DNA of 64,000 bases from Eledone cirrhosa. Lineage: Eukaryota. Made by a program: the position numbers and the translations under genes. Under the pieces are notes generated by a model. That model saw nothing but the letters and a program-made list of their open reading frames with translations, was not told the origin of the DNA and did no database searches. This document shows, in pieces, positions 4,643 through 64,000 of this stretch (position 1 is its first letter; every line of letters starts with the position of its first letter). Where the stretch lies: contig OZ024742.1 in NCBI GenBank assembly GCA_964016885.1, forward strand, positions 253,952,001-254,016,000, written 5' to 3'.

Positions 4643-4697
4643 ACTGCTATATATATTTCGGTGATAGCCATCTTTGGCTGTGACCTCTTCAGGCAGT
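4643..4697 (-). ncRNA. type I hammerhead ribozyme motif (inverted copy of 5222-5276)
   Basis: reverse complement of the 5222-5276 motif. Confidence 0.8.
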
Positions 4698-5276: not shown

Positions 5277-5448
5277 AATAAACGAAGCCAAATTTTAAAC
5301 ATTTGGCTTATTTATTTTAGTTTATTTTATATACATATATATTTATATAATAAAGATAATAATAATATCGACGAGGTGTTAAATTGTCATTACATTTATT
5401 GCTGTGACGCACATTTCACAATTTATCAGCTCAAGGTTCGATCTGTAT

Positions 5449-8100: not shown

Positions 8101-8116
8101 TGTTCTTTTTCCTGTT

Positions 8117-8350
8117 GTGCGATTGCCTGATGACGGTCGTGGGGTTCTCACACCTGGCCTCACTAACCACCCGACTACCGTGCGCAACCCTAACATGGTT
8201 AGTGTTATTGCTGTTTACGCAGTTGTTTTTGTGCGATTGCTTGATGACGGTCAGGGGGGGGGGGGGGTTCTCGCACAAGGCCGTACCAGCCACCCCACTA
8301 CCGTGCGCAGCCCTAACATGGTTAGTCTTATTGCTGTTGACGCAGTTGTT
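8117..8350. repeat. two ~115-bp tandem repeats at the RTE 5' end
   Basis: TGTGCGATTGC(C/T)TGATGACGGTC...CCCTAACATGGTTAGT...ACGCAGTTGTT occurs twice. Confidence 0.8.
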
Positions 8351-8485
8351 GCAATTCTTATTTGTTGTTCTCATAATTTTGGCATTTATTATACTGGTGG
8401 GATGCCCTTCCTCACACCAGCACCACTTTACTGCATGGGCTGGGTGCTTTTATTCGTGCCACCAGCACTAGAGAGGTCGTAATGG

Positions 8486-9226: not shown

Positions 9227-9990
<764 letters not shown>

Positions 9991-10120
9991 ACGTGTCCGT
10001 TGAACCTGCGGGTCCAGAATCAGACAGATCCACACAATGATCGCGTCTCGAGCTGTCTTCCGGCGAAACAAATGTAACACACAATAAATTGAGTTCAGAT
10101 GCATCACTGATTTTTCGTTT

Positions 10121-13400: not shown

Positions 13401-13830
13401 ATCTAGGATGTCATTCCAATCCCCCGCTAGAAGCAGGGAACGCGACGTTCCCAGAAAAGTCTCCAAACGCTGGAAGAAGTCGGGCCGTTCAGCTCCGAAA
13501 GGGGAGTAGACGGCGACCAGTCTCAAGGCCGCACCTTCACTACTGCCAACGTCTAGCACCAACAAACGACCCTCCGGGTCCGAGTGAACAACCTGTACGG
13601 CAATACCCAGGTGTTTTTGCAGCAGTACGACAACCCCACCCCCACCTCCAGGTTGACAGAGAGATGCATGCAACTCAAAGTCATCGAAGGTAGGGGCCAG
13701 CTGCCGCACGACGCTGATCCGAGTCTCACAGATAACCATTACATTTATACCACATACCTGAGGTCATTTAGAAGCTTTGCTTGCTTCCAAGTTGAGCCCA
13801 GGCCACGTGCATTCAAACATCCTACTCTTA
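10431..13830 (-). pseudogene. Tx1-like ORF2 (APE endonuclease-RT-zinc finger), multiple frameshifts
   Basis: ORF pieces 13239-13739, 12511-13188, 12027-12638, 10720-12033, 10431-10787 carry consecutive domains. Confidence 0.88.
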
Positions 13831-15559
13831 ACACATCCACGTGGGCGGCAGAGCCAAAGGAGAGTGTTTCCAGTGGTTCGGGTCGCACGACTTCCATGGG
13901 GTCGGGGGTGTTGGGTGAAGGGGTGTCTTGTGGTGGTGTGGGGTCGTCAGTGTGTGGTGGGGTTGGGGTGTTTGGAGTTGTGTTGGGGAGGGGAGGGGGA
14001 GGGAGAAAGCTTTTTAGTAGGACGCGGTTTATGGGTTTGACGGAGGGTGGTCCTACGTCCTCCTTAAAATCCTTTTTTAGTTTTTGGTAGAGGTTCATTG
14101 CGATCTTTATTAATTTTAAATGTGGGTAGTTTTCTGAAGAAACAAAGTTTACACCTTCGGTTTGTACCGAAGGATTATTGTTTATGAGTTCATTTAATTT
14201 ATTATTGTTTCTGTTGATGTAAGTATAGTGTAATGTCTTTTTTTCGGATAGTGTGAGTGTTTCGAAGAGTGGAGGGGCAGGTTTGGTTTTGTTTGTTGCT
14301 GGAGGGGTGTTTTGTGTTTTGTTGGATTGTGTTGACATTTGGGTGGGGGTTGTTTGGCCTTGTGTGTTTTGCACATGTTTTCTTTTTTTCCTTTTAATCT
14401 GTCTGAAGGACTCCGTTTCTTCCTCCGAATTCGTTGGGTTATCTTCAGTGTTGGAAGGAAGAGGTATGTTTGCTGGTAATGTTTCCGTGTTGGTTTTCTT
14501 TGTGGGGGAGATGGATGTCACTATGTTAGACTGCGTTGTGTGTTGTGGCTGCGGTGGTTGTGTTGTTTTATTGAGTGAGGGGTTGGGTGGGCCTGTATTT
14601 TGTTTTGGGGTAATGTGTTGTGACTGTTTGTGTTGTGGTAGTGCTGTAGTTTTACTGAGGGACGGGTTGGGTGGGACTGAGTTTTGTTGTTTGTTTATCT
14701 GTTGTGGTGGTGGTGGTGGAGCTGGTGTTGGTAGCAAGGTTTTCTTTTTGTTGAGTTGGGGACAAGCCGCCTTCAGGTGCCCTCTGCCTGCACAGATATG
14801 ACAGGACGGTCTTCTCCCCTCCACGCTAATGTTTATATACCCGTGGCCTTCTAATAGGATTCTGTCGGGTATTTGGGCGATGCGTTCAGGCTTCATTTAC
14901 ACTACAAGCTCTGTAGCTGTTCCACTGAACGCATTGCCTGTGGTTTTCCCAATGGAAATCACGTTGTCATTCGCTGGATCGATGAAGCCAGCTATGAGCC
15001 AGCAGTAGTCCACATCTGGCATCATTGCATCCAGCCATATGCGTTGAGTTCTTTTACCCATATAAGATGGATAAAAGGTAAAATTTTTCGAACGAATCGG
15101 TGACAAAGCACATTTTTTTGCCGCCGATTCGTTCTTCATAATAATCGCTAGGCTTCCATACAGTCTGTCTTTTCTTATGAAAGTGGTTTCATTAAGTACT
15201 TCTGTGAGTACTGTTTTGATGTCTGTTTGAGTTGGCTGTTCAGGTTTTTTAGAAGTGTTGTTGATGGTGCGGAAAACGACCGTTCGACTTTCAATGTCTT
15301 TGGTGAGTTCTTGAGGCATTTTTACCGATAAAATACCATTCTCTCCTTCAGTTATATATTGTTTGGCGTCTGCAATTCTTTGTGCCACATCTGAAATATT
15401 TTCAGGTATATATGTCAAAGATTTCTTTGTTGTTTGTGCAAATGAAATCTTATTGGTGTTGACTTTGTCGTCTGCTTTGCTTTCTGTTATGATGTTGTTT
15501 TCAAATGTTATTTTTGTATTTGTTGTGTCTTTGTTTGTGGTATTAATATTGTCATGCAA
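13745..15559 (-). pseudogene. Tx1-like ORF1 (gag-like, zinc knuckle, P/T/N-rich linker), one in-frame stop
   Basis: ORFs 14897-15559 and 13745-14896 are contiguous in the same frame; CHICAGRGHLKAAC. Confidence 0.8.
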
Positions 15560-15689
15560 TTTTTCAAATTTTCTTTTTTCTACGGGGATTTTTTAGCACT
15601 TCTTTATCCAGCGGTCATCCTCCATGTGCATCACATGTTCATGCCAACGCAGTCTTCTCTCCCTCACACTATAGTTTAACAACAACGTG

Positions 15690-16717: not shown

Positions 16718-16832
16718 ATATGAAAAGATTCAGGACCCTGACTGCTGAGCTCCAGACATTTCGACAGCTAGATCCGATCTAGCTGTCGAAATGGCCGGAG
16801 CTCAGTCGTCAGGGTCCTGAATCTTTTCATAT
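16718..16832. repeat. near-perfect 57-bp-arm palindrome (1-nt spacer) abutting (TA)n
   Basis: ATATGAAAAGATTCAGGACCCTGAC...CTAGATC C GATCTAG...GTCAGGGTCCTGAATCTTTTCATAT. Confidence 0.9.
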
Positions 16833-21193: not shown

Positions 21194-21618
21194 TTTACGT
21201 CCGCTTTTCCCTGCTTGCAAGAGTTGAACAGGCCCTATTCAGCACAGCATCTCTCCACTTGTCACGGTCCTTCATCATCTCCTCAGTGAGTTTCAGTCAT
21301 CTGAGGTCTTCTCTCACCACCTCTGCGGATGTCTTTCTATCATCCAGCATCGTGCATCTCACACAAACATCATATAGCCGTCCTTTCGCACGCAGGGAGA
21401 AACCCTTCTTTGTCAACAGAGGAAGAAGATCCCTAAACTTTTTCTAACCCATCCTTATTCTAGATACTATGGCCTTGGAACACCCTCCCTCCCATGAAAA
21501 TCTGATCACCTAGGTACCAGAAGCTATCAACCACTTCTATAGAAACCACCTGCATTGGAAAAATGTGTCTATCACTGCAATTACTACTGCCAACTTTCCC
21601 TGTACATCTACTGCATAC
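21163..21618 (-). mobile_element. RTE LINE 3' fragment with (GAT)n tail, internally deleted
   Basis: ~21345-21618 closely matches ~5483-5757; (CAT)n at 21163-21192. Confidence 0.8.
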
Positions 21619-21620
21619 GT

Positions 21621-22670
21621 GCTTGCGACAGGTTCAGAAAAGAACTCACAGCCTTCTTTAAAGGCTTCAACCTCTCTATACAGGTTGAGGCCAATCTCTC
21701 GGTCGTTAATTACCTCGACGTTACCCTCAACTTATTGAATGGGTTGTATTACCCGTATAGAAAGCCGAATGATACGCTTAATTACATAAGTAAGCATTCC
21801 AACCATCCTGCCAGCATAACCAAGAACCTGGTAAGAAACGTTTCGTTGAGGCTTTCCCGTCTTTCCACCAACGAGCGTACTTTCAACGACCATTCCACTT
21901 ATTACAATGAAGCTCTTGCTCGAAGTGGATTTGTCGATAAGGTAGCCTATACAGAGTACGAAAATAGACCTAGAAGAAATAGATCCCGTCGCATTTGTTG
22001 GTATAACCCACCATATAATATGGAGGTGGCCACACCATTAGCTAAGATTTTTCTTTCCCTTATTACGAAGCATTTTCCCCCTACACATAAATATAGTAAA
22101 ATTTTTAATAGAAATACTATTAAAATTTTCTACTCTACGACTCCTAACCTTGCACATAACATCACAGCTTCAAATTTAGCTAAACTACCTAGCCGTAGGA
22201 ACACGTGCAACCTTGTAGTTAGTACTAACTGTAATTGTAGGAATCGGGTTGATTGCCCCCTATCCGGGAAATGCCTCTCTAGTAACATTGTCTACAAATG
22301 TAGGGTTGTAACACCCATGTCCCGTAGGGCCTACATAGGGTTAACCGCCAATAGATTCAAGCAGCGTCTTTACATGCATACCCATTCTTTTCGTTACCCT
22401 CTAAGAAGGAATATGACGTCACTTTCAAATTATATCTCGAGTCTAAAAGACAACCACACCCAATATAAGTTACACTGGGAGATCCTAGCTAGGGCTAGGT
22501 CGTATAACGGAAATAAAAGACCATGTGACCTCTGCGTCGCTGTGGCCCTGGAAATACTCTACGCCACAGACCACATCTTAAACAAAAAATCTGAGGCAAT
22601 TTCGGCTCGTAAACATAAATTGCACAAAACTTTCCTGTATTACAGCCCCACGTTATACCCTAACGGATAG
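21621..22670 (+). pseudogene. truncated PLE RT-GIY-YIG ORF (first ~21 aa of listed ORF 21555 are antisense RTE sequence)
   Basis: homologous to ORFs 31239-32876 and 41481-43418. Confidence 0.88.
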
Positions 22671-24830: not shown

Positions 24831-25373
24831 ATCAAAGGTATATATTGAGTTAGGAACTCAAAATAGTCTCTTACAACAAAATAGCTGTAAGAAAGAGATA
24901 TTTCTGAGCCGTATATTATAATAGAATATAAAAGAAAAACGAACACAGACATATATATATGTGTTCAAATCGTAAGGGACCTGATTCACTAAGGTGAAAA
25001 GAATACTAACTATAGACAATAGGGTTCGCTTGTCCCAATTTAAGAAAAAATTAAGAAAATAAATGCAAACCGGAATTGTGGTAACTACCAATCACCCAGA
25101 CAACTTGTTCTTGTTTCGCAAAGTTAATTGTGAATATAAATACCAATCCAAGCTTTCTATTCACAATTAACTTTGCGAAACAACAAGTTGTCTGGGTGAT
25201 TGGTAGTTACCACAATTCCGGTTTGTATTTATTTTCTTAATTTTTTCTTAAATTGAGACAAGCGAACCCTATTGTCTATAGTTAGTATTCTTTTCACCTT
25301 AGCGAATCAGGTCCCTTACGATTTTGAACACATATATATGTCTGTGTTCGTTTTTCTTTTATATTCTATTATA
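24831..25373. mobile_element. fold-back element family C (~220-bp arms, 21-bp spacer)
   Basis: 24917-25136 inverts 25158-25373; homologous to 48885-49456. Confidence 0.85.
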
Positions 25374-25492
25374 ATTATATATATATATATATATTACGTA
25401 GACAATGGAGGCGTATGTGCATAAACACACCTGCACAGTGTCGTATTTGTGACAGTATCGTATTAGCTCAATGTACAATAACAGAGCCGTTA

Positions 25493-26088
<596 letters not shown>

Positions 26089-28019: not shown

Positions 28020-29760
28020 TCTAAATTTTTTCCATAAACAATACAACGACATTAGGTAACTTAGGAGGAAATTTATTGTGCCTTTTTTTGATAATGTTGT
28101 CACTAATTTCATCCCAATTTTCAGCACCACTTTTTACCAGACAAGTATAATGGCCTGCCGTAGATGATACTCCTCCATGAAGAATGGCAGCTTTTAATGT
28201 GAAATTTGTGCCATATATTTGCTGCTTTTTTGTTCTCCTTCATTATTAATAAAGAAAATCTACTAATTGAGATGACAAGATATCTGAAATCGTTAGTATA
28301 TTCAATTCTTGAAGTTATTTGATGCTCAGTATTTTCAGAACAAGTATCACAGTATTTAGTCAAAGTATTTGTTGTTGAAAGTAGAGATTTAAATTGTTGT
28401 GTGCCATTAATAGGATTTAATATCAAATCCTCTTTTATTTGAAATGGAAGTTCAGATTCTATACCACATCCAGGTCTTGAATTACAATTGCAAACATTGT
28501 TATTTAAAGCTTGGCAATTTGTTTAATGCAATCGGCTACATCTAGTATGATCAGTTTGAATAAATTGAAGTTTTTCTCTAAATACCAAGTCCAAATGTAG
28601 AGAGAGTTCTTTCCAAAATTCATGAGCACATTGCTGATTTCCATCATGAAATCTTCCTCCAATTATTCTACTTAAGTTAGAGTCATTATGATTATTAAAA
28701 ATGATATTGCTTAATTCTTGATGTGCTCCATTCATGTTGTTAAAATTATAAAAATACTCTACAAATTCAGGCAATTGATTCAGTGATTGCACAACTGAAT
28801 TTGCAAAACAAGCATTTTTGGGGTTGATAAATTGATGTTTAAGGATTAAAGTTTGGCTGTTTTCATTTCTTTCCTTCTTTTTGGCAGGTTGGTTTGAATT
28901 TTCTTCCAAATTAAGTCTTTTGGTTCTTTTCTTGGGCACGCTAGAAGTGTTTGCCATTCAAGGAGGCTTTTTCCTGCAAGGTGGCAATGGAGGCAAATCT
29001 GCTCTTCCAGTACTTCCCATGCAGATTTGTCAACCATGATCAATGATCTTGGATCAAAGTCACAGGGATACACATTGCAAAGTTTTCTGGCTCTTGAAAG
29101 AGCTACATAAGCTTGACCATCAGAAAATATCTGATTTCCTAAATCAGCAACTATTCCATCCACAGAAATTCCTTGTGATTTGTGAATTGTTATAGAGTAA
29201 GCAAGAGACAATGAAAATTGTGTTCTGGTGACAAAAACACCAGGAGAAATTTCATAGTCTGCTTGAACTCTTCCAATGGAAATGGGTTTGTCCTTTTTGG
29301 TATCAAAAGACACCAACATATTGTCAACATTGCTTCCATTCCCAATTAATTCAATAACTGTTCCAATAACACCATTGCATAAGCCTTGATCTACATCAAC
29401 GTTTCGTTTCAACATCACTCTTGCTCCATTCAGGAATGGAATACAATTCAATCAATTTTTTAGCAATTTCTTCAACAGATGCTTTTCTATCAGGAAATAG
29501 GCATCTTTTTTGAAGAATGCTAATATCAGAGTCTGATGGGGAACCAATCCTAATTCTTCCCAAAATATCAACATAGTTGTCTTTGTCTTCTTTTTGTCTC
29601 ATATTAATGGTTAGCTCATCATATTGAAAGTATTTCCACAATGAATGCCCATTAATGGCAATTTCTGTTCTTTTGGCATCATATGATGAAATTCTAGAAA
29701 ATACTGGTTTTTCATTTACAGGTGGCAATTGCATCAAATCACCAAACAAATTAAAAAAGT
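28020..29760 (-). pseudogene. decayed PIF1-family helicase C-terminal half followed by USP/peptidase C19 domain (probable Helitron-like element fragment)
   Basis: GDLMQLPPV, ELTINMRQ, RVMLKRNVD..GLCNG, AYSITIHKSQG, GQAYVALSRA; then Cys box NPKNACFANSVVQSL, NQQCAHEF, His box LKAAILHGGVSSTAGHYTCLVK..WDEISDN (~28200-28095, unlisted frame). Confidence 0.82.
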
Positions 29761-30113
29761 TATGATGAGTCAAAATCAATGAGAGGCCTTATCCTCCACT
29801 ACTTGAGCACACATATTTTAGCGTAACTTTTTTTCTACTGACCCAAATTTCAATTTCCTTATACCAAAATGTAGCCTGGGATGAGTCCATTCTAGAGCAA
29901 AAAACCTGATAAGATTTGGGTGAGAACTGACTTAGTGACAAGTCCTAGAGCTGGTTGTCGTTGGGAAAAGGTTGACCTTAAGAATATTATTCACACACTA
30001 CCGTGTGTGAATGATACACATATATATTATATATACATATATATACATATATATTATATATATATATTTATATATATATATATAATGTATATTTATATAT
30101 ATATATATATATA

Positions 30114-31072: not shown

Positions 31073-32819
31073 TGCCGTCTTCAGAAATAATGAAATATAT
31101 TTATTGATAATAACAACAATTCAAAATTACAGGTCTGTTTGGGAACAGAGTTCAAATTGACCAATGGAAACACAAAAAGTTTATACAGTTAGGTGTGTGT
31201 ATATATGTAAGTAACTTCTCTTCTATATCACCTATACATTGATATTTGCTAAAAATAGATCTAACTTAACTTTGGATGACATTAATATTATTACACATGC
31301 TAGACTAACACTTATTGAATTTCAGAATGAATACTGGACCAGAAACACATATAGTAATCTATTTGATATTACTATGGGTTCAAGCGATTCCGCCCAAATT
31401 ACTGATCTCGTGGGCCTCTTTCTCCTTTTCAACATAAATGCCTCCTTTCCCCACCTTAAAGGTGGTTTATATCGTGATGACTGTCTTCTTCTTTCCAACA
31501 ACCTTAGCCTTTCAGAAATAGAAAAAAACAAAAAGCATATTAGAACTTTCCTTAAAGACTATTATAGTCTTCATATTACCTTTGAAAAAACAAGTAAAGT
31601 AGTAAATTTCCTAGATATAACTTTAGACTTAGCTACGGGTATCTACCAACCTTACCATAAACCCAACCAAAACTTACACTACATACACTCACAATCTAAT
31701 CACCCTAAATCTATCCTTAAAAACCTTGCATATAATATATCACTTAGAATTTCTAACCTTTCTTCTAACCAAGATGTATTTGATAAAAATGCGACCTTCT
31801 ATAATGAAGCTCTAGATAGAAGTGGCCACAAAAATAGATTAGAATATATACCTTCTACTAAAAATAAAAATACTATAAACATACAACCTAATATTACCAA
31901 CAAACACCAAATGAAAAGTACACACCTAAATGCCACCCACACTATACCCCAAAATACCAACAACTCTTCTAATATAAAGTATAGTAACTCTCAAAAAACT
32001 ACTCATCATACAACTCTAATAAATGTTAATAATAAAACTCCTAATAAACAAGATAAAACACCTAAATCTATAAATCTAACTAAAAATGTGCGTGGTGAGA
32101 TCATTAACATTAATCCTCCTAGTAAACATCACGATACAACCTATAAAAATAATAAACAACATAGAAACCGTAATAGACGAGTTACTTGGTATAATGCTCC
32201 ATTTAATTTACAAATTAAGGATAATATTGCTAAAAAAACTTTTTATATCCTAGAGAAAAACTTCCCGCCAAACCACAAATACCATCAAATCTTAAATAGG
32301 TCTACAGTTAAATTCTCATACTCAACAACCAATAACATAAAACAAAATATAAGTGCCTATATTGCATATAAATGTAAGAATACCATAAGTATACCACCAA
32401 TACATCAAACTAACCATAATATCTCCTCAAATACAGAATTAACGAAAGGTTGTAACTGTAGAAACAAAGCAAACTGCCCATTAAAAGGAAATTGTCTTGT
32501 TAACAACATAGTTTATAAATGTAATGTTAAAACTAAAGATTCTATTTGCTCATATATAGGAGCTACTTCTAACAATTTTAAGGTAAGGTTTAATACCCAC
32601 AAACATAGTTTTAAAAATGCCGCACTGGCTAATACAACATCTCTAGCAGAAAAAATCAATAGTTATAAAAATAAGAATATAGAATATGATATGACCTGGA
32701 GTGTGCTCAAAAGAGCCACCCCTTATCAAAATAATAGAAATGAATGTAGATTATGTTCCCAAGAACTATTTGAAATAATGAAATCTAAGGATATCCTATT
32801 AAATAAACGACAGGAATTA

Positions 32820-33900
<1,081 letters not shown>

Positions 33901-37691: not shown

Positions 37692-37701
<10 letters not shown>

Positions 37702-38607
37702 CGTAAAATAAGAAAATATTTAAAAAAAGAAAATTTTTTAAAAATTTTTTTACTTACTTACTTAAATTTTCACTCCAACTAATTAGTTTCTGCAATGGGA
37801 TAAAGACAGTTACGTAATCCAACTGTCGAGAATTCATTGCGTCATCAGGGAGTCTATTCTCAGTTAAGTCTCCAGGCAATGCGCGGACACTGGCGGCTCA
37901 TATAAAAATAATAATAATTCGGTAGATCGAACAGCTGGCGAGGACTGGATTCTATGTACCGAAATTCTCACTGCTTCAGGTCAAATGGCCGATTCTAAAG
38001 AATCAATCACGTGACACAGAGGCTAGTTAGAAGGAATGGGATGGTAAGATGACTGACGCCTACTAACACCCCAACAAATTTTTTTAGAAGTGGTTTTGGC
38101 AAGTTTGCTCGACAAATCAGTGATTTGGAGATAAATATAGATAATTTAATATATCAACTAACATAAGCGCACAGATGCACGCCCATGCTAGCAAATACAC
38201 AGGTTATGTCATAGTACCTAGGTGGTTCAATGCAGGAGAATGCAGAACAATAATATAAAAGACGTAAAATAAGAAAATATTTAAAAAAAAAAAATTTTTT
38301 TATATGAGCCGCCAGTGTCCGCGCATTGCCTGGAGACTTAACTGAGAATAGACTCCCTGATGACGCAATGAATTCTCGACAGTTGGATTACGTAACTGTC
38401 TTTATCCCATTGCAGAAACTAATTAGTTGGAGTGAAAATTTAAGTAAGTAAGTAAAAAATAAAAAAAAAAATTTTTTAAAAAAATATTTTCTTATTTTAC
38501 GTCTTTTATATTATTGTTCTGCATTCTCCTGCATTGAACCACCTAGGTACTATGACATAACCTGTGTATTTGCTAGCATGGGCGTGCATCTGTGCGCTTA
38601 TGTTAGT

Positions 38608-38608
<1 letters not shown>
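37692..38608 (-). mobile_element. retrozyme-like family B, copy 2 (~560-bp unit plus ~310-bp inverted segment)
   Basis: direct repeat TATAAAAGACGTAAAATAAG at ~37692 and ~38254; hammerheads at 37772-37853 (-) and 38352-38433 (+). Confidence 0.88.
38352..38433 (+). ncRNA. type I hammerhead motif (family B; minus copy 37772-37853)
   Basis: ACTCC-CTGATGA-cGCAATG..CATTGCa-GAAA-CTAATTAG-TT-GGAGT. Confidence 0.87.
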
Positions 38609-38705
<97 letters not shown>

Positions 38706-39114
38706 GCTCATAATTGTTTTGGCATTAATACACTGGTTGGATGCCTTCCTAACACCAGTGCCACTTTACAGCATGGACTGGGTGGTTTTATTCGTGCCAC
38801 CAGCACTAGAGAGGATGTCTTACTGGACTCATGGGCCCTCTCTACCCCTCCTTTTTACAGCATGGTCATAACAATAATAACAATAATAACAATAATAATA
38901 ACACTATTAATAATTATCAATTAATGCAATCGTGCAATGCCTGTGCGTGAAGAATATTTTTAAAGTGAGGAAAGACTGTGCACTGAGCCAATCCCACTCT
39001 CTGAGCGACAGTAGCTATAACCCGAAAAGAAGAAAAGATCAACATCATCGGTAACTACTCAGCCGCAGGTTTTATGTCGGTGTTGACCCAGTTTCCTGAG
39101 ATGCCTTCTCCTAG

Positions 39115-39480
39115 ATTCTAGGTATCTATGGTCCCTCGGGAAGCATTTATCAAGTGCTCTAAAGAATGAGCGGGCCAAGCTGTTCTTTAGGGCCGCTGAG
39201 TAGAGTGGGTTGTACCACGTGATTTTTCTGCATCTACTCCTATGTGGGTGGGTTGAGCGTGCCGTGGGCTGTCGAGGAGTTGTTGGGTTGCTAGTGATTC
39301 CCGCATTGTTGCTTCCCCTTTGGGCGCTATGTGTTTTGCTACCTTCTCGGCCCGAATCTGTGGGGTGGTTGTTGCCTGCGCTAGGAGCTCTACAATGGGA
39401 TGGACCACCGTCACCCCCTCCACGTGTCTTGCGGTTGGGGGCGTCGGGCCCGGGGTGGTTAGTTGTTTCCATTCTGCCTG
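39115..39480 (-). pseudogene. PLE linker-region fragment
   Basis: RCRKITWYNPLYS...FFRALDKCFPRDHRY, homologous to the WYNPPY..FPPTHKY block of the other PLEs. Confidence 0.7.
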
Positions 39481-40187
39481 TGTTGTTAGGGTGCGCCTAT
39501 AAGTACAGCAGCCCCACCATACCCCTGCCTCGATCGACTCCTGTGACAACACATACTTATGCATATGTCCATACATAGATACTGTTATTTAAGATTGTAC
39601 ATGCACAGTTACTTACATGTGTGTGTGCGGGTGGGTTTGTGTGCGTGTGGGTGTGTGTGTGTGTGTGTACATGTGTGTATGTGGGTGTGGGTGTGGGGGT
39701 TTATAATGTGTGTGTATGAGGGGGGGGATTTAGGGGATGCACCTGGGCCTGTGCGTGTGCGCTTGGAACAATGTGAGTTGACATACACGCATATGTGCTT
39801 TAAAAATGTATTTTATTTTATTTTATTAATACATTTTTACACTTCTTAATCCAATTTTTAGTATTTCAACCCAATATAAAATAATATACCCAGTTTCTAT
39901 ATTTTAGTCCTCTAATATTTGAATACCATCTATATTATTCGCACATACACCTCATCAATTTACTTTTTAACCGTTATTTACAGCTAGTTTCATTTTGACA
40001 GCGTTCCTGATCAAAAGTCTCTCTCTCTTCCTTCATTCTTTTTTCCTCTCTTCTCTTTCTTTTTCCTTTTTCTCCTTTCCTTTTCTTCTATTTTCCTATC
40101 TTTTTCTTACTCTTATATTTCTGTCATATGTAGATTTTGCACTTTCCTGTTGAAAGTGTGTTTAGGCCTCATATCATGTTACCTTAC

Positions 40188-40251
40188 TTTATCTGATGAG
40201 AACACAATTTTTGTCCCAGGATGATGTTGTTTTCGAAATGCGCATAATAAA
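40188..40251 (+). ncRNA. type I hammerhead motif in PLE-like 3' end (~39560-40380; terminal fragment of same family at ~9143-9230)
   Basis: TTTAT-CTGATGA-GAA..TTC-GAAA-TGCGCA-TA-ATAAA. Confidence 0.8.
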
Positions 40252-41144
40252 ATATATGGAACTTTTTTAACCATCTTTTAATATCTTCTTTAATATATAC
40301 TCCAGTTCTACCAACTGTTGAGTGCTACTTATCTGATATATGCATAGTTTTATTGTTCTACAATATTACTCACCTTCTACATATATATATATATAGAAAG
40401 ATTTGAATGGATACAGTTTAGTTGAAAGGAATTTATTGACACGTGTTTCTATAACAGTTACATAACCTAAAACAGCTGCTATCTACAAACTTTTAGTTAT
40501 GCAGACATTCAATATTTCAATGTTATTATTTACTGTCATTTCATCAGAATAATATTACTGAGGACCTATTTAGTTTTTATAGAGAATATTAGGAGGGAGG
40601 GGTGAAGTTGTTAGAAGAATAGTTGAAGGAGTGGTTTTTCGATAGCAGTGAGAATTCTTGGTGGCAGTGAGTAATTAGATTCCCATCTGTTGTTTTGACA
40701 TTTTTTATAGAATATATTATTGGTTATTTTTCTAAATCTATAGAAGGATTAGAGATAGTAAAGATATGCGTGGCTGGTTTTGTGTTTGCACTTAATTAAC
40801 ATTCAGACTTAAATTTTTCTTTCAAGTGTACGTATCCTTTCACCCACGCATTCACAAACAAATATATTTGCACACCTCTACAAAATACATATACTCACAA
40901 TTCACATATTCATACTTACATATATATACACATGCATACACATATATATACACACATGTATTCATGTACATACATACGCGCTCATGTGTATACATTTTCA
41001 TACTCAACTTATCTTTATATACACACGTATAGACACACACATATATACATACATACTCTAGTCCATGCGTACACACATACACATACATACACATCCATAT
41101 ACACATATATACATACATATATATACATATATACATATACATAC

Positions 41145-41213
<69 letters not shown>

Positions 41214-41480
41214 CACTTTAATACATGAATACACTTACATCTAACTATACACATCAAACATATATATATATTTACTTATTTATATACATTTTCACATATA
41301 TATACATACTTATGGACGTTTTTAGACACATTCATTATCGCATATTTGTACCTATTCTCATCAGCATATCTTTCCATTATTAGTGTGGTAATTTAAGGTT
41401 ATTAATATATGTTGAGAAGAGATTGTTTTTATATTTTTCTAACTAGATTAAGGTTTATATAGTTGGGGGATGTCCCTCTT

Positions 41481-43803
41481 TTATGTAATATTCGGCTTGT
41501 AGTGGGAAAAAAGGGTTTTAGTTCTGTGACGGCAGAATAATGTTCGTTCAATTCTGTTATTCAGCAGTTTCTTCTTGTGTGTGATTATGTAATAAATCTC
41601 AAGATTACACAATTTGCAGAAATTTTGGCTCCTGGAAAAGCTTTGGGTTTTAGCTAATTTTTCCCATTTTAGGGTAAACTTTTGATCGCTATCCCTGAGC
41701 GTCCAAGCTTTTTCTGCTAAAGTTGTTACATTTCTTTGGCTCTGGTGTTTTATTGAGTAAGAATGCCTATACAATCGAGATTTAAACGATGTTGCCGTTG
41801 ATCCCACGTAATACCACTCGTTGCCTCCGGATTTAATGGTACACTTATAAATAATATTTTTTTCCAGGCAGTTATTGCCGAGGGGGCAGTTGTCAGGATA
41901 GATGCAGTTACAGTTGTGTACGTTGGGTTTTCTCTGGAGTAGTATTGCGGACGAACTTAGGTGTGGTTTATTTATGTTCTGTAGTGTATTGTTTACTGTT
42001 TTTTTTGTGTTCTTTGTACTTAAGTTCTTAGTGCTTTCGTTTAACCTTCTAGTATTGATCTTTTTTATGTGTTGTTCAAGGTTTAACGCTGTAGAGTATG
42101 ACAGTCTTATAGTGGTAGGGTTTAGGATTTTATGGTATTTGTGTGATGTGGGAAAATGTCTTTTAATTATTTTAAAGAAGAGTACTGGTAAATTTGTACT
42201 AATGGAACTATTGTATTCGGGGTTATACCATAAGTACTCTTTGCATCGCTTTCTATTAGTTTTGTTTGTTGGTTTACTGGTGTGCATACTATGGTAGTAA
42301 GTGTGGTTTGGTGTTGTGTTATTATATCTACCTATGTGGGATTTATTTTGGGTGTTTTGATTGTTCCCATCTATGTACTCTATTTTGTTGAGGTAGCCTG
42401 CTTTACTAAGGGCGTTATCGTAGTACTCGGCGTGTTCCTTAAATACTTGTATGTTAGAAGATAGACCCGAGATTCTAAGGGAAATATTTTTAGGGATAGA
42501 TTTAATTATAGAGATGGGGTGGTTAGACCCAACATTTACGTAATTGAGATTTTCATTCAATTTATGAAACGGTTTAATCAAACCAGAGTTTAAATTGAGT
42601 GTGACATCCAGGAAGTTAACTACTTTAAGGTTGTATTCATATGTTATAGTTAGTCCTATTTCGAGTAGTAGTTTTCTTATATCTTTGCGTAGTTTTTCTA
42701 GTTTTTGGTTATTAAGGTTTTTAGCTAGGAGGAGAACATCGTCGCGGTATATTCCGCCGTGGAGATTGCTGAATTTTTCCTGGAGTCTAAAGGCGATAAA
42801 TAACCCCACAATATCAGTTATTTCCGCCGAATCGTTAGAGCCCATTGTTATGTCAAAGTTAGAGGGTCTATCTTTACGTACCCAATAACTGTTCTCAAAT
42901 TTGACTATAGTTTTCCTAGCTTCTAATATAATCTTAATTTCATCGTTTGTAAGGTCAGAGTTATCCTTAGCAAACTTAATGGCTCTATTCAAAGTTTCAG
43001 GTGATATCGATGAGTAATATTCATCGATATCAAACTGGATAAACTTAGATTTATTCTTATTGCTAATGCTATTAAACCATCTTATTGCTTCTTGGGTCTT
43101 CCCCCAGAGTTTAATGTTAACCTTAACCTTAATTTGGGGGATGATTCTATCTAAGATATATTTGCTTATTTTACCTATATCTGATTTAGAGGGGCAGATT
43201 AATCTAATTTTAGGGTCATTATCAAAGTTTACCTTGTGGTCCTTAAGATTGAAGGTGGGTACCGCCGGTAAGAGTGGTCCTGTCCTATCTTCGATTCCGA
43301 GATTTTTCACTATTTCGCATGCCTCATCATTGATGTGCTTAAGGGCTACTTCACTCGTTTTTCTATATTTTTTATGTAATTCTTTTCGAATGAAGTTGTT
43401 GTATGTAGTGCAATCCATAGTGTACAGGTTTGATGTTTTGTCCGCTTTTACTACAATTCCTTTGGTGTTTTTAAGGTCGTCCAGTAGTTTTTTTTATATC
43501 TTTCTGTAATTTGCTGTTGGTGTTGCGTCCTTTGAATTTAATTTTAAGGATTAAGTTCATAAGGTCCTGCTCAAATGCATCTAATAGTGGGTTGGTGGGT
43601 GGGTTTTTACAAGTCCTAAAACCGAATTTGTTGTTTACACCACTTTCTAATGTTGAGTTCATACGGCTTCTATCATAGTGGAGCGTTTTCCACCTGACAC
43701 GTCGAATGAATTCATTAGTTTTTTGAATCATACTCAATAAATATTCCTTTCTACCTTGGGTTGGTATGTTTTTGAGTGACATATCCAGGTAGTGTTTTTC
43801 CAT
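41481..43803 (-). CDS. near-intact PLE RT-GIY-YIG polyprotein (~770 aa) with one frameshift in an A-run near 43490
   Basis: MSLKNIP N-terminus, KADKTSN, RLICP, QFDIDEYYSSI, FDITMGS, IYRDD, VNFLDV, CNC..CP, IIYKC..YVGST, CKLC. Confidence 0.85.
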
Positions 43804-44719
43804 TGTTGTGGTTGCGTTTGCTGTGTGGGTTGCTCGACTTTACAGGAGGTAAATATACAGTATTTTCCGTTGTGTTGTAATATAAATATTACACACAGTA
43901 GATTATCAGCTCACGTAGAGTTTGCTCGACGGTTCCAGTTGTAGTTCCAAAAGTAATCCGGAGAAAAATAGAAAGATTTGAATGGATACAGTTTAGTTGA
44001 AAGGAATTTATTGACACGTGTTTCTATAACAGTTACATAACCTAAAACAGCTGCTATCTACAAACTTTTAGTTATGCAGACATTCAATATTTCAATGTTA
44101 TTATTTACTGTCATTTCATCAGAATAATATTACTGAGGACCTATTTAGTTTTTATAGAGAATATTAGGAGGGAGGGGTGAAGTTGTTAGAAGAATAGTTG
44201 AAGGAGTGGTTTTTCGATAGCAGTGAGAATTCTTGGTGGCAGTGAGTAATTAGATTCCCATCTGTTGTTTTGACATTTTTTATAGAATATATTATTGGTT
44301 ATTTTTCTAAATCTATAGAAGGATTAGAGATAGTAAAGATATGCGTGGTTGGTTTTGTGTTTGCACTTAATTAACATTCAGACTTAAATTTTTCTTTCAA
44401 GTGTACGTATCCTTTCACCCACGCATTCACAAACAAATATATTTGCACACCTCTACAAAATACATATACTCACAATTCACATATTCATACTTACATATAT
44501 ATACACATGCATACACATATATATACACACATGTATTCATGTACATACATACGCGCTCATGTGTATACATTTTCATACTCAACTTATCTTTATATACACA
44601 CGTATAGACACACACATATATACATACATACTCTAGTCCATGTGTACACACATACACATACATACACATCCATATACACATATATACATACATATATATA
44701 CATATATACATATACATAC

Positions 44720-44780
<61 letters not shown>

Positions 44781-47043
44781 CACTTTAATACATGAATACA
44801 CTTACATCTAACTATACACATCAAACATATATATATATTTACTTATTTATATACATTTTCACATATATATACATACTTATGGACGTTTTTAGACACATTC
44901 ATTATCGCATATTTGTACCTATTCTCATCAGCATATCTTTCCATTATTAGTGTGGTAATTTAAGGTTATTAATATATGTTGAGAAGAGATTGTTTTTATA
45001 TTTTTCTAACTAGATTAAGGTTTATATAGTTGGGGGATGTCCCTCTTTTATGTAATATTCGGCTTGTAGTGGGAAAAAAGGGTTTTAGTTCTGTGACGGC
45101 AGAATAATGTTCGTTCAATTCTGTTATTCAGCAGTTTCTTCTTGTGTGTGATTATGTAATAAATCTCAAGATTACACAATTTGCAGAAATTTTGGCTCCT
45201 GGAAAAGCTTTGGGTTTTAGCTAATTTTTCCCATTTTAGGGTAAACTTTTGATCGCTATCCCTGAGCGTCCAAGTTTTTCTGCTAAAGTTGTTACATTTC
45301 TTTGGCTCTGGTGTTTTATTGAGTAAGAATGCCTATACAATCGAGATTTAAACGATGTTGCCGTTGATCCCACGTAATACCACTCGTTGCCTCCGGATTT
45401 AATGGTACACTTATAAATAATATTTTTTTCCAGGCAGTTATTGCCGAGGGGGCAGTTGTCAGGATAGGTGCAGTTACAGTTGTGTACGTTGGGTTTTCTC
45501 TGGAGTAGTATTGCGGACGAACTTAGGTGTGGTTTATTTATGTTCTGTAGTGTATTGTTTACTGTTTTTTTTGTGTTCTTTGTACTTAAGTTCTTAGTGC
45601 TTTCGTTTAACCTTCTAGTATTGATCTTTTTTATGTGTTGTTCAAGGTTTAACGCTGTAGAGTATGACAGTCTTATAGTGGTAGGGTTTAGGATTTTATG
45701 GTATTTGTGTGATGTGGGAAAATGTCTTTTAATTATTTTAAAGAAGAGTACTGGTAAATTTGTACTACTCGAACTATTGTATTCGGAGTTATACCATAAG
45801 TACTCTTTGCATCGCTTTCTATTAGTTTTGTTTGTTGGTTTACTGGTGTGCATACTATGGTAGTAAGTGTGGTTTGGTGTTGTGTTATTATATCTACCTA
45901 TGTGGGATTTATTTTGGGTGTTTTGATTGTTCCCATCTATGTACTCTATTTTGTTGAGGTAGCCTGCTTTACTAAGGGCGTTATCGTAGTACTCGGCGTG
46001 TTCCTTAAATACTTGTATGTTAGAAGATAGACCCAAGATTCTAAGGAAAATATTTTTAGGGATAGATTTAATTATAGAGATGGGGTGGTTAGACCCAACA
46101 TTTACGTATTTGAGATTTTCATTCAATTTATGAAACGGTTGAATAACAGAATTGAACGAACATTATTCTGCCGTCACAGAACTAAAACCCTTTTTTCCCA
46201 CTACAAGCCGAATATTACATAAAAGAGGGACATCCCCCAACTATATAAACCTTAATCTAGTTAGAAAAATATAAAAACAATCTCTTCTCAACCACACCTA
46301 AGTTCGTCCGCAATACTACTCCAGAGAAAACCCAACGTACACAACTGTAACTGCACCTATCCTGACAACTGCCCCCTCGGCAATAACTGCCTGGAAAAAA
46401 ATATTATTTATAAGTGTACCATTAAATCCGGAGGCAACGAGTGGTATTACGTGGGATCAACGGCAACATCGTTTAAATCTCGATTGTATAGGCATTCTTA
46501 CTCAATAAAACACCAGAGCCAAAGAAATGTAACAACTTTAGCAGAAAAACTTGGACGCTCAGGGATAGCGATCAAAAGTTTACCCTAAAATGGGAAAAAT
46601 TAGCTAAAACCCAAAGCTTTTCCAGGAGCCAAAATTTCTGCAAATTGTGTAATCTTGAGATTTATTACATAATCACACACAAGAAGAAACTGCTGAATAA
46701 CAGAATTGAACGAACATTATTCTGCCGTCACAGAACTAAAACCCTTTTTTCCCACTACAAGCCGAATATTACATAAAAGAGGGACATCCCCCAACTATAT
46801 AAACCTTAATCTAGTTAGAAAAATATAAAAACAATCTCTTCTCAACATATATTAATAACCTTAAATTACCACACTAATAATGGAAAGATATGCTGATGAG
46901 AATAGGTACAAATATGCGATAATGAATGTGTCTAAAAACGTCCATAAGTATGTATATATATGTGAAAATGTATATAAATAAGTAAATATATATATATGTT
47001 TGATGTGTATAGTTAGATGTAAGTGTATTCATGTATTAAAGTG

Positions 47044-47128
<85 letters not shown>

Positions 47129-47720
47129 GTATGTATATGTATATATGTATATATATGTATGTATATATGTGTATATGGATGTGTATGTATGTGTATGTGT
47201 GTACACATGGACTAGAGTATGTATGTATATATGTGTGTGTCTATACGTGTGTATATAAAGATAAGTTGAGTATGAAAATGTATACACATGAGCGCGTATG
47301 TATGTACATGAATACATGTGTGTATATATATGTGTATGCATGTGTATATATATGTAAGTATGAATATGTGAATTGTGAGTATATGTATTTTGTAGAGGTG
47401 TGCAAATATATTTGTTTGTGAATGCGTGGGTGAAAGGATACGTACACTTGAAAGAAAAATTTAAGTCTGAATGTTAATTAAGTGCAAACACAAAACCAAC
47501 CACGCATATCTTTACTATCTCTAATCCTTCTATAGATTTAGAAAAATAACCAATAATATATTCTATAAAAAATGTCAAAACAACAGATGGGAATCTAATT
47601 ACTCACTGCCACCAAGAATTCTCACTGCTATCGAAAAACCACCCCTTCAACTATTCTTCTAACAACTTCACCCCTCCCTCCTAATATTCTCTATAAAAAC
47701 TAAATAGGTCCTCAGTAATA

Positions 47721-47840
47721 TTATTCTGATGAAATGACAGTAAATAATAACATTGAAATATTGAATGTCTGCATAACTAAAAGTTTGTAGATAGCAGCTG
47801 TTTTAGGTTATGTAACTGTTATAGAAACACGTGTCAATAA
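47721..47840 (+). ncRNA. type I hammerhead with 91-nt helix II domain (minus copies 40433-40552 and 44008-44127)
   Basis: TTATT-CTGATGA-aATGACAGT..ACTGTTATa-GAAA-CACGTG-TC-AATAA. Confidence 0.82.
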
Positions 47841-47987
47841 ATTCCTTTCAACTAAACTGTATCCATTCAAATCTTTCTATTTTTCTCCGGATTACTTTTG
47901 GAACTACAACTGGAACCGTCGAGCAAACTCTACGTGAGCTGATAATCTACTGTGTGTAATATTTATATTACAACACAACGGAAAATA

Positions 47988-48075
<88 letters not shown>

Positions 48076-48884: not shown

Positions 48885-49456
48885 AAACTCAAAATAGTCT
48901 CTTACAATTAATTAGCTCTAGGAAAGAGATTTTTCCGAGCCGTATAATATAACTGAACAAAAAAGAAAAACGAACACAGACATATACATATATGTGATTT
49001 TGAGTTTCTAACTCAATATATGCCTTTGATATATTCGGCTCCGTTGATCGTCGAGCTAATTCAAATGTCGAGTAAGCCCGGCTGCTATTTTTAGTGGTGT
49101 GAGTCTGCGAGACACGCTAAGTTCTGATACCATGTGTGTTGTTATATATACGCACACTATCCAGTTTTTTAATATACTTAGAAGTGACCAGGATACTAAT
49201 AATTCTTCACCCGCTGATGAGCAACGATTTGGTATTCCTCTTCACAATTAATATTGCGAAACAGTATTATCAAAACTGTCCGGGTGATTGGTAGTTACCA
49301 CAATTCTGGTTTGTATTTATTTTCTTGATTTATTCTTAAATTGAGTCTGGCAAACCCTGTTGTCTATAATTAGTATTCTCTTCGCCTTAGCGAATCTGGT
49401 CCCTTACGATTTGAACACATATGTCTGTGTTTGTTTTTCTTTTTTGTTCAGTTATA
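48885..49456 (+). mobile_element. family C non-coding element with inverted 5' segment and canonical hammerhead
   Basis: homologous to 24831-25373. Confidence 0.8.
49208..49286 (+). ncRNA. canonical type I hammerhead ribozyme motif
   Basis: CACCCG-CTGATGA-GCAA..TTGC-GAAA-CAGT..ACTG-TC-CGGGTG; GUC cleavage triplet. Confidence 0.9.
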
Positions 49457-49474
49457 TTTATATATATATATATG

Positions 49475-50365
<891 letters not shown>

Positions 50366-50911: not shown

Positions 50912-55237
<4,326 letters not shown>

Positions 55238-55282
55238 TATATATATATATTCATATACATATAAATATACATATATATATAC

Positions 55283-57000
55283 ATAGTTTGATACAACAAG
55301 TTTGATTTAGAACGTAGCACAATGGAAAGCATCCAGCAGATAGCTAATTCCATACACCAGAGTATAACTGTAACTATCGACTTCCCTTCCAAACACCCTA
55401 ACAATAGACTACCTGTATTAGACACAGAACTCTGGATTAACACTATAGACGAGAGAGCCCAAATTCTCCACTCACACTATGCTAAACCCATGGCCTCCAA
55501 ATACCTGATACTCAAAAACTCAGCAATGTCCAGTAGTGCTAAGTTTAATATTCTGATCGCAGATTTGGTTCGACTGATGAAGAATGTGTCCCGCATGTGC
55601 GTCCCAACAGAAATGGAAAGACACATCCAACACTTCATCAACCGCATGCAGTTCTCTGGCTACAACCAAAGAGACAGAGTCAGAGTATACGAAGGAGCCA
55701 TGGAGAAGTATAAGACCCTCGTAGAACTGGACATGAAAGGAATTTGCCCATTATACAGGAGCAAATCATGGAATAGCTTAGATAGGGCTAGACATAAGAT
55801 AGGGAAAGCCACCTCATGGTACGACAACCAGAGATACCAGAGTGTCATGTTTGTGGACGCTACCCCTGGAGGGAAATTAGCTAACCAGTGTAGAAAAGCC
55901 CTGAGAAAGACCCACTTAAAAGTTAAGGTGGTAGAAAAGCCAGGAACCACCATAAAAACCCTGATCAGCAAAACCTACCCTTTTAAGAAAACCCACTGTA
56001 CCAATAGGAAATGTATCATATGTAAGGTAAACCCCCGGATAAACTGTAAAACTAGAAACGTAGTCTATAGCATAAGATGTACAGAGGGTACCTGCAGAAA
56101 CATGACAACAACATACATAGGTGAGACAGCTCGTAGCATAGGTGAAAGGATAGACCAACACTGGAGGGAACTAAAAGGACGAAAAAACGGGTCAGTACTA
56201 TACGAACATGCCAGACAACAACATGACGGTAACATAGACAACATAGAAATTAGAATAATATCTAAACATAGAAATGACCCAGCAGATAGGCAAATCAGAG
56301 AGGCCAGTGAAATAGAAATTAGAAGACCAAGACTAAACTGAAAGAATGAATGGAATAACAACAACACTCAAACAAACAACACTGACCTAAGAGAAGTATA
56401 AATAAGTAAATAAAATAAAATGAAATAAATAAATAAATAAATAAATACATTCACAAGCACAATAACAACAAACACATAAACACACATTAGTCACCCAATC
56501 ACGAACACACATCACACATCAAACAAAACACTATACATACACGCAAACGCATGCGCAAAGAAGACAAAATAAAATAAACAAACAAGCAAATAAATAAAAG
56601 AATATATAGACAGACTGAATAAAAATGGCGTAGCCATACAATTCAACAGGAGGAAACAATAGGACCACTGACGATGTTGCAGATGTGCAACGAAAGATTT
56701 ATGATAAACTATATATATGTGTTTGTGTCTATATTGTATCTGTATTATTTTTGACCGTTGGTCAGTCAATGGCAACATTGAGGACCGAATAAATTAGATT
56801 ACCGATATAAAAGACAGAAGCGAAAAGCGAAAACCAACCAAACAGTGAGTGTGTTCTGTTATTAATTCTGGCAATATTACACAAATATGACCCTCCCCAA
56901 GTATAACAATATATATTATATATATAACCCAAATATGACCCTCCCCAAGTATAACAATATATATTATATATATAACACAAATATGACCCTCCGCAAGTAT

Positions 57001-57007
<7 letters not shown>
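55283..57007 (+). mobile_element. second-type PLE (Neptune-like linker), 5'-truncated
   Basis: ORF 55322-56341: LPVLD, YAKP, SGY, CxxxxCxxC linker, VVYSIRC..C..YIGETAR..ER..H, H..H, REA; 3'UTR/pLTR follows. Confidence 0.88.
55322..56341 (+). pseudogene. PLE RT thumb + GIY-YIG endonuclease, truncated
   Basis: motifs as in the parent element; RT catalytic DD lies upstream of the truncation. Confidence 0.85.
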
Positions 57008-57072
<65 letters not shown>

Positions 57073-57156
57073 AAAGTTATATTTAAATTGTTGGGTTACA
57101 ACTAGTAAATATTTATAACTGATATAAAAGCACTCGACAAGTATTTGGAGTATATT

Positions 57157-58089
<933 letters not shown>

Positions 58090-59850: not shown

Positions 59851-63400
<3,550 letters not shown>

Positions 63401-64000
63401 TGAGGGAGATGGGTCTATGTTAGCCGCCCGCGGCCTAAATTAAGAGGGGGAATCCTTGCATCCTCGTCCGGCAGCATGAAGTGAATTTGTCTTTATCTTT
63501 GGCATTGTCACTGAGTGTCCATATTTTTTTACAGACTCTCCAGCATTCCGTAGTCCATCCATCATATCGAAAGGCAACCAGGTCTAAACTTAAGTGATAA
63601 CATAGGCCGCTGACTTATGATTGTTCCAAATAATAATGGTGGTGAGTGGGGGGGGGGGGGATCTGGGGTAGTTAGCGAGAAGGTTATAAAATAAAATCCA
63701 CTAAATTTTGGCCATAACCGAACGAGCATATAACTGTAATAAGGGAAGAATTATGGGATTTTAAAATACAAGAATATTATTTTGAACGATCAAACAGAAT
63801 TATCGAATAGCATTGAAAAAGAAAAGGTTGTATTCTGGACGATATGATACAGATAGATGAATGGACAAGGGAACATGGAGAGACGAGAAAATAGAATTCA
63901 TACATTACATTTCACAGAAGAGAGAACGAGCGATGTAGCCGTAAATATGGGTCGACAAATTCTGAGTTTCGTACCCCGCAACAGTTTATTTTATGTTTGA

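What the first reader, a model, noticed from the sequence alone, without database searches (positions are those of the whole stretch)
38352..38433. Direct covariation evidence that the family-B hammerhead is under structural selection
Helix II is GTAATG/CATTAC at 9.4 kb, GCAATG/CATTGC at 38 kb and GAAAGG/CCTTTC at 53.9 kb. That gives three different Watson-Crick pairs at position 2 and two at position 5. The internal hairpin also covaries (GATGGTTAC/GTAACTATC, GACAGTT/AACTGTC, GTTTC-UUCG-GAAAC with a cUUCGg tetraloop). The core CUGANGA/GAAA and the CTAATTAG helix III stay invariant.
Basis: seen in the sequence. Interest (0 to 1): 0.8.

Follow-up and report, generated by a model that had tools for sequence, protein, structure and literature searches.

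The report
Hammerhead retrozyme under RNA-structure selection
A 550-base non-coding repeat, present about 12,000 times in this animal genome, carries a predicted self-cutting RNA (hammerhead ribozyme) whose stems were kept paired again and again as the repeat evolved, and it likely spreads by borrowing the enzyme of Penelope-type jumping genes, whose copies stop just before the same small predicted RNA hairpin.

Summary
The motif is a type I hammerhead with a palindromic helix III, in a 510-580 bp ORF-less tandem/inverted repeat (about 12,000 anchor matches) inserted in (TA)n: a non-LTR retrozyme, likely moved by Penelope-like elements (PLEs). On a 109-tip tree built without the ribozyme, helix II has five double changes on internal branches (0 of 200,000 permutations), with all four Watson-Crick pairs at position 2. 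Over four stems, 36 of 37 lineage changes keep pairing, against 28 of 63 tip changes. So selection acts on transposing lineages; single copies decay. Against: three copies alone were weak proof, and position 5 tolerates a bulge or mismatch (339 against 1,593 copies). Compensation in PLE hammerhead families is already published. New here: a fixed extra A before G12, a GUU site, and a likely pseudoknot (one compensatory event). Also new: a bulged hairpin (YUC-stem-UY-GAR) lies 3-6 nt beyond the insertion ends of this family and of four other families in the window, among them an intact PLE; it may mark where reverse transcription starts. Cleavage and transcription are untested.

The parts
38352..38433 (+). 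Type I hammerhead motif (focal copy); predicted cleavage after 38428 (GUU)
38365..38413 (+). Extended helix II domain: 6-bp helix (38365-70/38408-13), 7x7 internal loop, inner hairpin 38378-38400
38414..38414 (+). Extra A between C11.1 and G12, fixed in all lineages sampled
   Evidence: 10,258 cores with CAGAAA; 50 matches with another base before GAAA, scattered over subfamilies, 2 of them unrelated
38418..38427 (+). Palindrome ACTAATTAGT (helix III; predicted dimer interface)
   Evidence: sequence; self-duplex -9.0 kcal/mol; intact in 93 of 99 family rows where it was not part of the query
38344..38377 (+). Predicted pseudoknot: leader GAGAAT (38344-49) with loop ATTCTC (38372-77)
   Evidence: GAGAA/TTCTC 169 copies, GAAAA or GGAAAA with TTTTC 23, crossed 3; one event on the tree
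38517..38538 (+). Bulged hairpin SL1 (TTC-stem-TT-GAA), 5 nt beyond the first end site
38108..38130 (-). Bulged hairpin SL2 (CTC-stem-TC-GAG), beyond the second end site
37692..38296 (-). Inverted arm of the same insertion: one full unit with a hammerhead at 37772-37853, ending in (TA)n
38297..38610 (+). Forward, 5'-truncated arm holding the focal hammerhead, ending in (TA)n
38000..38014 (-). Conserved TCACGTGATTGATTC box upstream of the hammerhead; promoter role inferred only
   Evidence: lowest internal-branch change rate among 20-column flank bins, 0.20 per column
9439..9520 (-). Hammerhead copy, GTAATG/CATTAC subfamily (element about 9395-9995)
53897..53979 (-). Hammerhead copy, GAAAGG/CCTTTC subfamily
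53729..55238 (.). Tandem plus inverted insertion of the GAAAGG subfamily (complete cores at 53973-, 54504-, 54696+; truncated core near 55224+)
41481..44130 (-). Copy of a young autonomous PLE family ('A'; frame split in this copy) with two end sites 118 nt apart, each followed by the bulged hairpin; candidate type of enzyme donor

Best explanation
The motif is a type I hammerhead fold inside a non-coding 510-580 bp repeat that is likely a non-autonomous passenger of Penelope-like retrotransposons, and its paired stems were kept intact in the lineages that spread, likely because only transcripts with the correct fold, and probably with cleavage activity, were copied into new sites. Steps: (1) shown - tandem and inverted copies, ragged 5' ends, two fixed 3' ends running into (TA)n; (2) inferred - multi-unit RNA is transcribed, perhaps from the conserved CACGTG box; (3) shown - helix II, the inner hairpin and helix I change by compensation or G-U steps on internal branches, while the core changes only at N7 and at the extra base after A9; (4) predicted - the ribozyme cuts after GUU, helped by a leader/internal-loop pseudoknot and by dimer pairing of the palindromic helix III between neighbouring units; (5) inferred - a PLE protein binds a bulged hairpin 3' of the cut, nicks (TA)n and starts copying 3-6 nt upstream of the hairpin, primed at a UAU(A) microhomology; (6) shown statistically - once inserted, copies pick up pair-breaking changes at about the flank rate.
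For: Helix II: 5 double changes among 7 internal pair events, against 1 among 14 tip events (Fisher p=0.0055); five same-branch co-changes occurred in 0 of 200,000 permutations. All four Watson-Crick pairs occur at position 2, and G-C to U-A occurs twice at position 5. Over four stems, pairing is kept in 36 of 37 internal and 28 of 63 tip changes (p=1.6e-8). Internal single changes away from a Watson-Crick pair: 14 G-U, 0 A-C, 1 other. C3,U4,G5,A6,G8,A9 show 0 internal changes, N7 shows 3, flank columns average 1.41. 75 of 84 distinct helix II domains fold with at least 5 of 6 pairs. 181 of 194 terminal ends fall in the bins at about 70 or 180-199 nt after the cut site, and 171 of 194 run into TA repeats. 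Family A has the same two-end pattern. The hairpin descriptor hits 26 times in the window against 1-9 in 30 shuffles; 12 hits lie 60-330 nt behind a hammerhead-like core against 0-1. Sister copies end 3-6 nt before it at 7 sites in 5 families.
Against: No cleavage or expression data. Position 5 is unpaired in register in 339 copies against 1,593 paired in the CCTTTC clade, and these include amplified sublineages; many have an extra G that allows a bulge or mismatch reading. For helix II alone, kept versus broken is not significant (p=0.063). In the whole-unit scan (132,870 pairs) the same three pairs rank first but at E=0.25-2.2. The pseudoknot rests on one event (E=38 over all pairs). Tip changes are also G-U-biased (22 against 6; contrast with internal branches p=0.08). 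43% of flank columns also show no internal change, so invariance alone is weak. The monomer MFE pairs CUGAU with AUUAG, 2.5-3.7 kcal/mol below the active fold in the three window subfamilies. No Rfam hammerhead match. No family-B copy was seen joined to a PLE ORF as its terminal repeat in 408 kb of loci. In PMC11167929, ribozyme mutants did not impair insertion in vitro; in the 2026 preprint 8 of 9 retrozyme dimers did not cleave. The focal arm itself appears to end 18 nt, not 5 nt, before SL2.
Confidence: 0.8

Rival explanations
1. The fold is selected but the ribozyme is catalytically weak or dead; the structure serves as a protein-binding, stability or export element of the RNA.
For: An extra A before G12 and a GUU site are both fixed; that GUU is slower than GUC is recalled, not checked. 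The competing monomer fold is lower in energy. Hammerhead mutants did not affect insertion in vitro (PMC11167929, main text).
Against: The core changes exactly where hammerhead chemistry allows it (N7, the base after A9) and nowhere else on internal branches. The palindromic helix III has no alternative lineage in 99 unselected rows.
Confidence: 0.13
2. The complementary changes come from template switching at quasi-palindromes during reverse transcription or replication, without selection.
For: Inversions and fold-back junctions are common in these insertions. The double changes mostly lack sampled intermediates on the tree.
Against: Lineage changes often go through G-U (14 G-U, 0 A-C), which only one RNA strand tolerates. 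Only 1 of 14 tip events in helix II is double, so such correction is not frequent in new copies. The arms are 6 bp and 37 nt apart.
Confidence: 0.04
3. The pattern is shared ancestry of a few subfamilies: columns co-vary only because they mark the same branches.
For: Three-copy comparisons yield many chance complementary pairs. Many non-structural pairs score high before correction.
Against: The tree-aware null and the branch permutation both reject it. The changes lie on five different branches of a tree built without the ribozyme.
Confidence: 0.03

Closest known systems
Non-LTR retrozymes of animals (PMC7229834; bioRxiv 10.64898/2026.07.22.740005)
   Same: ORF-less head-to-tail repeats with a type I hammerhead in each unit; low GC; thousands of copies; proposed to be non-autonomous PLE derivatives.
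   Different: The unit is 510-580 bp (150-450 in PMC7229834; 51-972 in the preprint). Copies are mostly short dispersed tandem/inverted insertions in (TA)n with two fixed ends. Circular RNA is not shown here.
Hammerheads in PLE pseudo-LTRs (PMC4209133)
   Same: [quoted passage not shown]
   Different: A further A between 11.1 and G12; U17; helix II broken by an internal loop and capped by a second hairpin; a longer palindrome (10 nt); a predicted pseudoknot. I did not see these in the parts read; Lunse et al. (PMC5785218) was not held and may list such variants.
Pseudoknot-stabilised hammerheads (PMC3088659)
   Same: Base-paired contact between the helix I side and the helix II side; predicted there for about 40% of hammerheads, in all three types.
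   Different: Here the contact would join the 5' leader of helix I to an internal loop of helix II in a eukaryotic repeat; it is supported by one compensatory event.
PLE 'tail' and internal initiation (PMC11167929; PMC8557442)
   Same: Two start sites inside the RNA, downstream of the hammerhead; RNA 3' of the start is needed; partial tandems with an inverted 5'-truncated copy; microsatellite bias.
   Different: The spacing is 116-118 nt, not 30-40; the ends have TAT(A) microhomology to the target, whereas the lizard element has none; and a shared bulged hairpin follows each end, which that paper does not define.

Membership tests
Type I hammerhead ribozyme | CUGANGA, GAAA and UH core | tested here: met
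   CUGAUGA/GAAA/UU; only N7 and the extra base after A9 change in lineages
Type I hammerhead ribozyme | Three helices, open at helix I | tested here: met
   helix I keeps pairing in 7 of 7 internal changes
Type I hammerhead ribozyme | Helix II closing pair directly next to G12 | tested here: not met
   Extra A between C11.1 and G12 in all lineages; equally readable as a C-A or A-A mismatch at 10.1/11.1. A mismatched closing pair is known in nature (U-U; PMC3088659 section 8)
Type I hammerhead ribozyme | [quoted passage not shown] | tested here: inconclusive
   Pseudoknot candidate, one compensatory event
Type I hammerhead ribozyme | Match to an Rfam hammerhead model | tested here: not met
   None at E<=1 in the window or E<=10 at the locus
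Type I hammerhead ribozyme | Self-cleavage | not testable with these tools
   needs an in vitro assay
Non-LTR retrozyme | Head-to-tail units, each with a type I hammerhead | tested here: met
   61 full monomers of 510-579 bp; same-strand neighbours at many loci
Non-LTR retrozyme | No protein coding | tested here: met
   six-frame translation of two units; no tblastn match of PLE proteins inside units
Non-LTR retrozyme | Transcribed and processed to linear and circular monomers | not testable with these tools
   no RNA holder listed
Non-autonomous PLE derivative | Partial tandems with an inverted 5'-truncated copy | tested here: met
   '-+' is the commonest layout, 42 of 153 loci, with 16 more mixed back-to-back layouts
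Non-autonomous PLE derivative | Two alternative 3' ends (tail) and microsatellite targets | tested here: met
Non-autonomous PLE derivative | Sequence descent from the pseudo-LTR of an autonomous PLE | tested here: inconclusive
   No parent found. Only the end hairpin is shared with family A; local alignment scores reached by 0, 2 and 53 of 300 resamples for three subfamilies

The most novel reading that the evidence does not exclude
PLE reverse transcriptases of this genome recognise a conserved bulged RNA hairpin (YUC-stem-UY-GAR) and start copying 3-6 nt upstream of it. Two such hairpins explain the two alternative ends (the 'tail'), and carrying the hairpin is what lets this retrozyme, with its pseudoknotted, extra-A hammerhead, hijack the enzyme.
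Probability: 0.6. Interest if true: 0.75.

Novelty: new variant of a known kind. Interest (0 to 1): 0.55.

Why it matters
Whether PLE and retrozyme hammerheads matter for spread is open: it has been suggested that they merely parasitise PLEs (PMC8557442), and mutants did not impair insertion in vitro (PMC11167929). A 12,000-copy family with a resolved lineage ladder shows selection on the fold and the core in copies that transposed, and offers natural compensatory series for assays. The end hairpin offers a concrete, testable signal for the unexplained internal start of PLE reverse transcription, and a way to link ORF-less repeats to PLE enzymes.

Tried and rejected
DNA search of the genome with the 136-bp locus found nothing, because common words are skipped; patterns were used instead. 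Rfam gave no hammerhead hit, only microsatellite artefacts. Pfam found no RT or GIY-YIG match in six window ORFs; the Atlas placed the 669-aa ORF next to HTH_animal/GIY-YIG/RVT_1 clusters. The first tree mixed in non-homologous flanks and was discarded. IQ-TREE failed on an option, so the tree is FastTree. A distal helix I extension (CTTA/TAAG) was considered; no covariation supported it. No other structured region emerged from the whole-unit scan. The core-sequestering monomer fold is lost in the N7=C lineage, so I do not take it as a selected switch. No RNA holder listed. Contigs of runs X4 and X5 were few and shallow and are not used as evidence of other hosts. A search for the autonomous parent returned only family A. 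Alignment A1 was not used. Lunse et al. could not be read. Earlier scan notes by sequence and by place were empty.

Full report
Observation. The three helix II variants and inner hairpins are in the window as quoted. The 9.4 kb and 53.9 kb copies are on the minus strand, and a strict helix-aware scan finds six complete copies and nothing else. The fold is type I: helix I ACUCC/GGAGU, CUGAUGA, an extra base, a 6-bp helix II, an extra A, GAAA, the palindrome CUAAUUAG, and UU at the cut site. The focal copy folds at z=-2.6; the 53.9-54.7 kb copies fold no better than shuffles (z -0.2 to -0.9). Rfam has no hammerhead match here.

What it sits in. Two disjoint anchors match 9,628 and 2,505 times in the 3.0-Gb genome, with 0 control matches. 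A pattern that leaves helix II and helix III free matches 10,258 times (control 16). Of its first 100 rows 99 are this family and 93 of those keep CTAATTAG; the six others carry scattered changes (read by eye). I collected 274 copies at 153 loci. Sampling was not random: it took the first hits on contig C1, oversampled the GGAAG subfamily, and added loci picked for a changed extra A. Sixty-one full monomers are 510-579 bp and code for nothing. Insertions are tandem and often back to back. Of 194 terminal ends, 181 fall at two sites about 70 and 186-191 nt after the cut, and 171 run into (TA)n through a TAT(A) microhomology. This is the PLE layout described in PMC8557442 (passages read) and fits a non-LTR retrozyme (PMC7229834, parts 2-3 of 6; bioRxiv 2026.07.22.740005, parts 1-3 of 5).

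Test of selection. I built a FastTree tree from 400 non-ribozyme columns for 109 copies from 107 loci (of 237 complete cores, 139 had enough flank; one per locus unless more than 8% divergent). It is ladder-like, and the ribozyme variants map onto it cleanly. Under a null that replays each branch's substitutions at random columns, the top three of 5,671 pairs are an inner-hairpin pair (E<0.004), helix II position 2 (0.02) and position 5 (0.16); the fourth is another inner pair (1.3). This is my own R-scape-style script. By parsimony, position 2 changes U-A to C-G, U-A to A-U and A-U to G-C, and position 5 changes G-C to U-A twice. Five same-branch co-changes occurred in 0 of 200,000 permutations. 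Leaving out two tips whose 1-nt indel shifts the parse, stem changes keep pairing in 36 of 37 internal and 28 of 63 terminal cases (p=1.6e-8). Tip changes in helix II (20 over 12 columns) run at about the flank rate (1.69 per column). Selection therefore acted on lineages that transposed, not on resident copies. The six fixed 5' core bases show no lineage change, while N7 shows three.

Evidence against. With three copies, chance complementarity is common for two-state columns (268 of 5,460). In the CCTTTC clade 339 copies are unpaired in register at position 5 against 1,593 paired, and some form amplified sublineages; many have an extra G that allows a bulge. Outside that clade one mismatch class gave only 32 scattered copies. 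In a whole-unit scan the same pairs rank first but at E=0.25-2.2. The G-U excess also appears on tips. The monomer's lowest-energy fold pairs the core with helix III. Nothing here shows cleavage or transcription. The statement that such families are full of compensatory changes is already in PMC4209133 (parts 1-2 of 4 read).

(1) The A between C11.1 and G12 is fixed: 50 matches carry another base before GAAA, scattered across subfamilies. I did not find this insertion in the parts read of PMC4209133 or PMC3088659 (passages and section 8), or through searches. Lunse et al. was not held, and figure supplements were not seen, so it may be in print. (2) N17 is U in 109 of 109. (3) The leader GAGAA(U) is complementary to (A)UUCUC in the helix II internal loop, which stays unpaired in 72 of 84 folds. 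One lineage changes both sides, to GAAAA/UUUUC and then GGAAAA (23 copies; 3 crossed). This is a single event and is not significant alone. Pseudoknots of this role are known (PMC3088659).

The end hairpin. A young intact PLE family A (785-aa frames, at least 150 near-identical copies) also has two ends, 118 nt apart, running into (TA)n. Each end of both families is followed, in read-through copies, by YUC-stem-UY-GAR. The descriptor hits 26 times in the window against 1-9 in 30 shuffles; 12 hits lie behind a hammerhead-like core against 0-1. The descriptor was drawn from these cases, so the independent check is position: sister copies stop 3-6 nt before the motif at seven sites in five families. 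Two more families fit by eye at about 7 nt, two sites had no usable sister, and the focal arm stops 18 nt before SL2. The first inner pair is C-G, U-A or A-U and the outer pair C-G or U-A across families. Within family B both hairpins are nearly invariant, and the bulge is UY in most copies (SL1: 65 UU, 13 UA; SL2: 63 UC, 38 UU, 3 other). PMC11167929 (main text read) shows internal initiation at two sites and a need for RNA 3' of them, without defining the signal. Text extracted from its supplementary figure has a UUC-N9-UU-GAAC stretch without an inner stem; I could not place it against the start sites, so it is a lead only. Searches found no description of this hairpin.

Mechanism and verdict. 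Most likely, multi-unit RNA folds the hammerhead and is cut after GUU, as a dimer or with protein help (predicted). A PLE enzyme then binds the end hairpin and copies the RNA into nicked (TA)n (inferred). The parent element was not found. By itself it is an expected property of a known class; the variant core, the lineage-resolved compensation and the shared end hairpin raise it to a new variant of a known kind, interest 0.55.

Noticed in passing
window 40393-47998: Complex tandem/inverted insertion of young autonomous PLE family A; many intact 785-aa frames genome-wide; hammerhead-like cores at 40547-, 44122-, 47726+ whose helices I did not resolve.
   Followed up: partly
window 4591-5328, 24915-25375, 25494-25986, 40193-40330, 49214-49480, 57005-57594: Several further short, often inverted elements with different hammerhead-like cores; most are followed about 100-110 nt downstream by the same bulged hairpin.
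   Followed up: partly
window 21543-22670, 31215-32876, 39059-39496, 51714-53170, 55292-56341: Further 5'-truncated PLE ORF fragments of several families; the 55.3 kb one has its own hammerhead-like core at 56668 (CTGACGA T GTTGCA..TGCAAC GAAA).
   Followed up: no
window 16718-16832: Short inverted repeat starting with a CTGACGA core that is cut off; likely a collapsed PLE-type insertion.
   Followed up: no
G000:C1:94666576-94674260: Long tandem array of the family (more than 12 units) in which some units carry GAAATG with CCTTTC, a possible intermediate of the position-5 change.
   Followed up: no
L022, L035, L066, L110 insertion ends: A minority of ends run into (CT)n instead of (TA)n, at TTCT microhomology.
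   Followed up: no
helix I across subfamilies: Stepwise growth: ACTCC/GGAGT, then a bulged ACTTCC/GGAGT, then /GGGAGT, /GGAAGT and ACTTTC/GGAAGT.
   Followed up: partly
window 2723-3540, 5426-8449, 10720-15592, 28121-29788, 60465-63439: Other mobile-element remains, judged from motifs in the translations only: a transposase-like frame, RTE-like and another LINE-like element, and helicase-like fragments.
   Followed up: no
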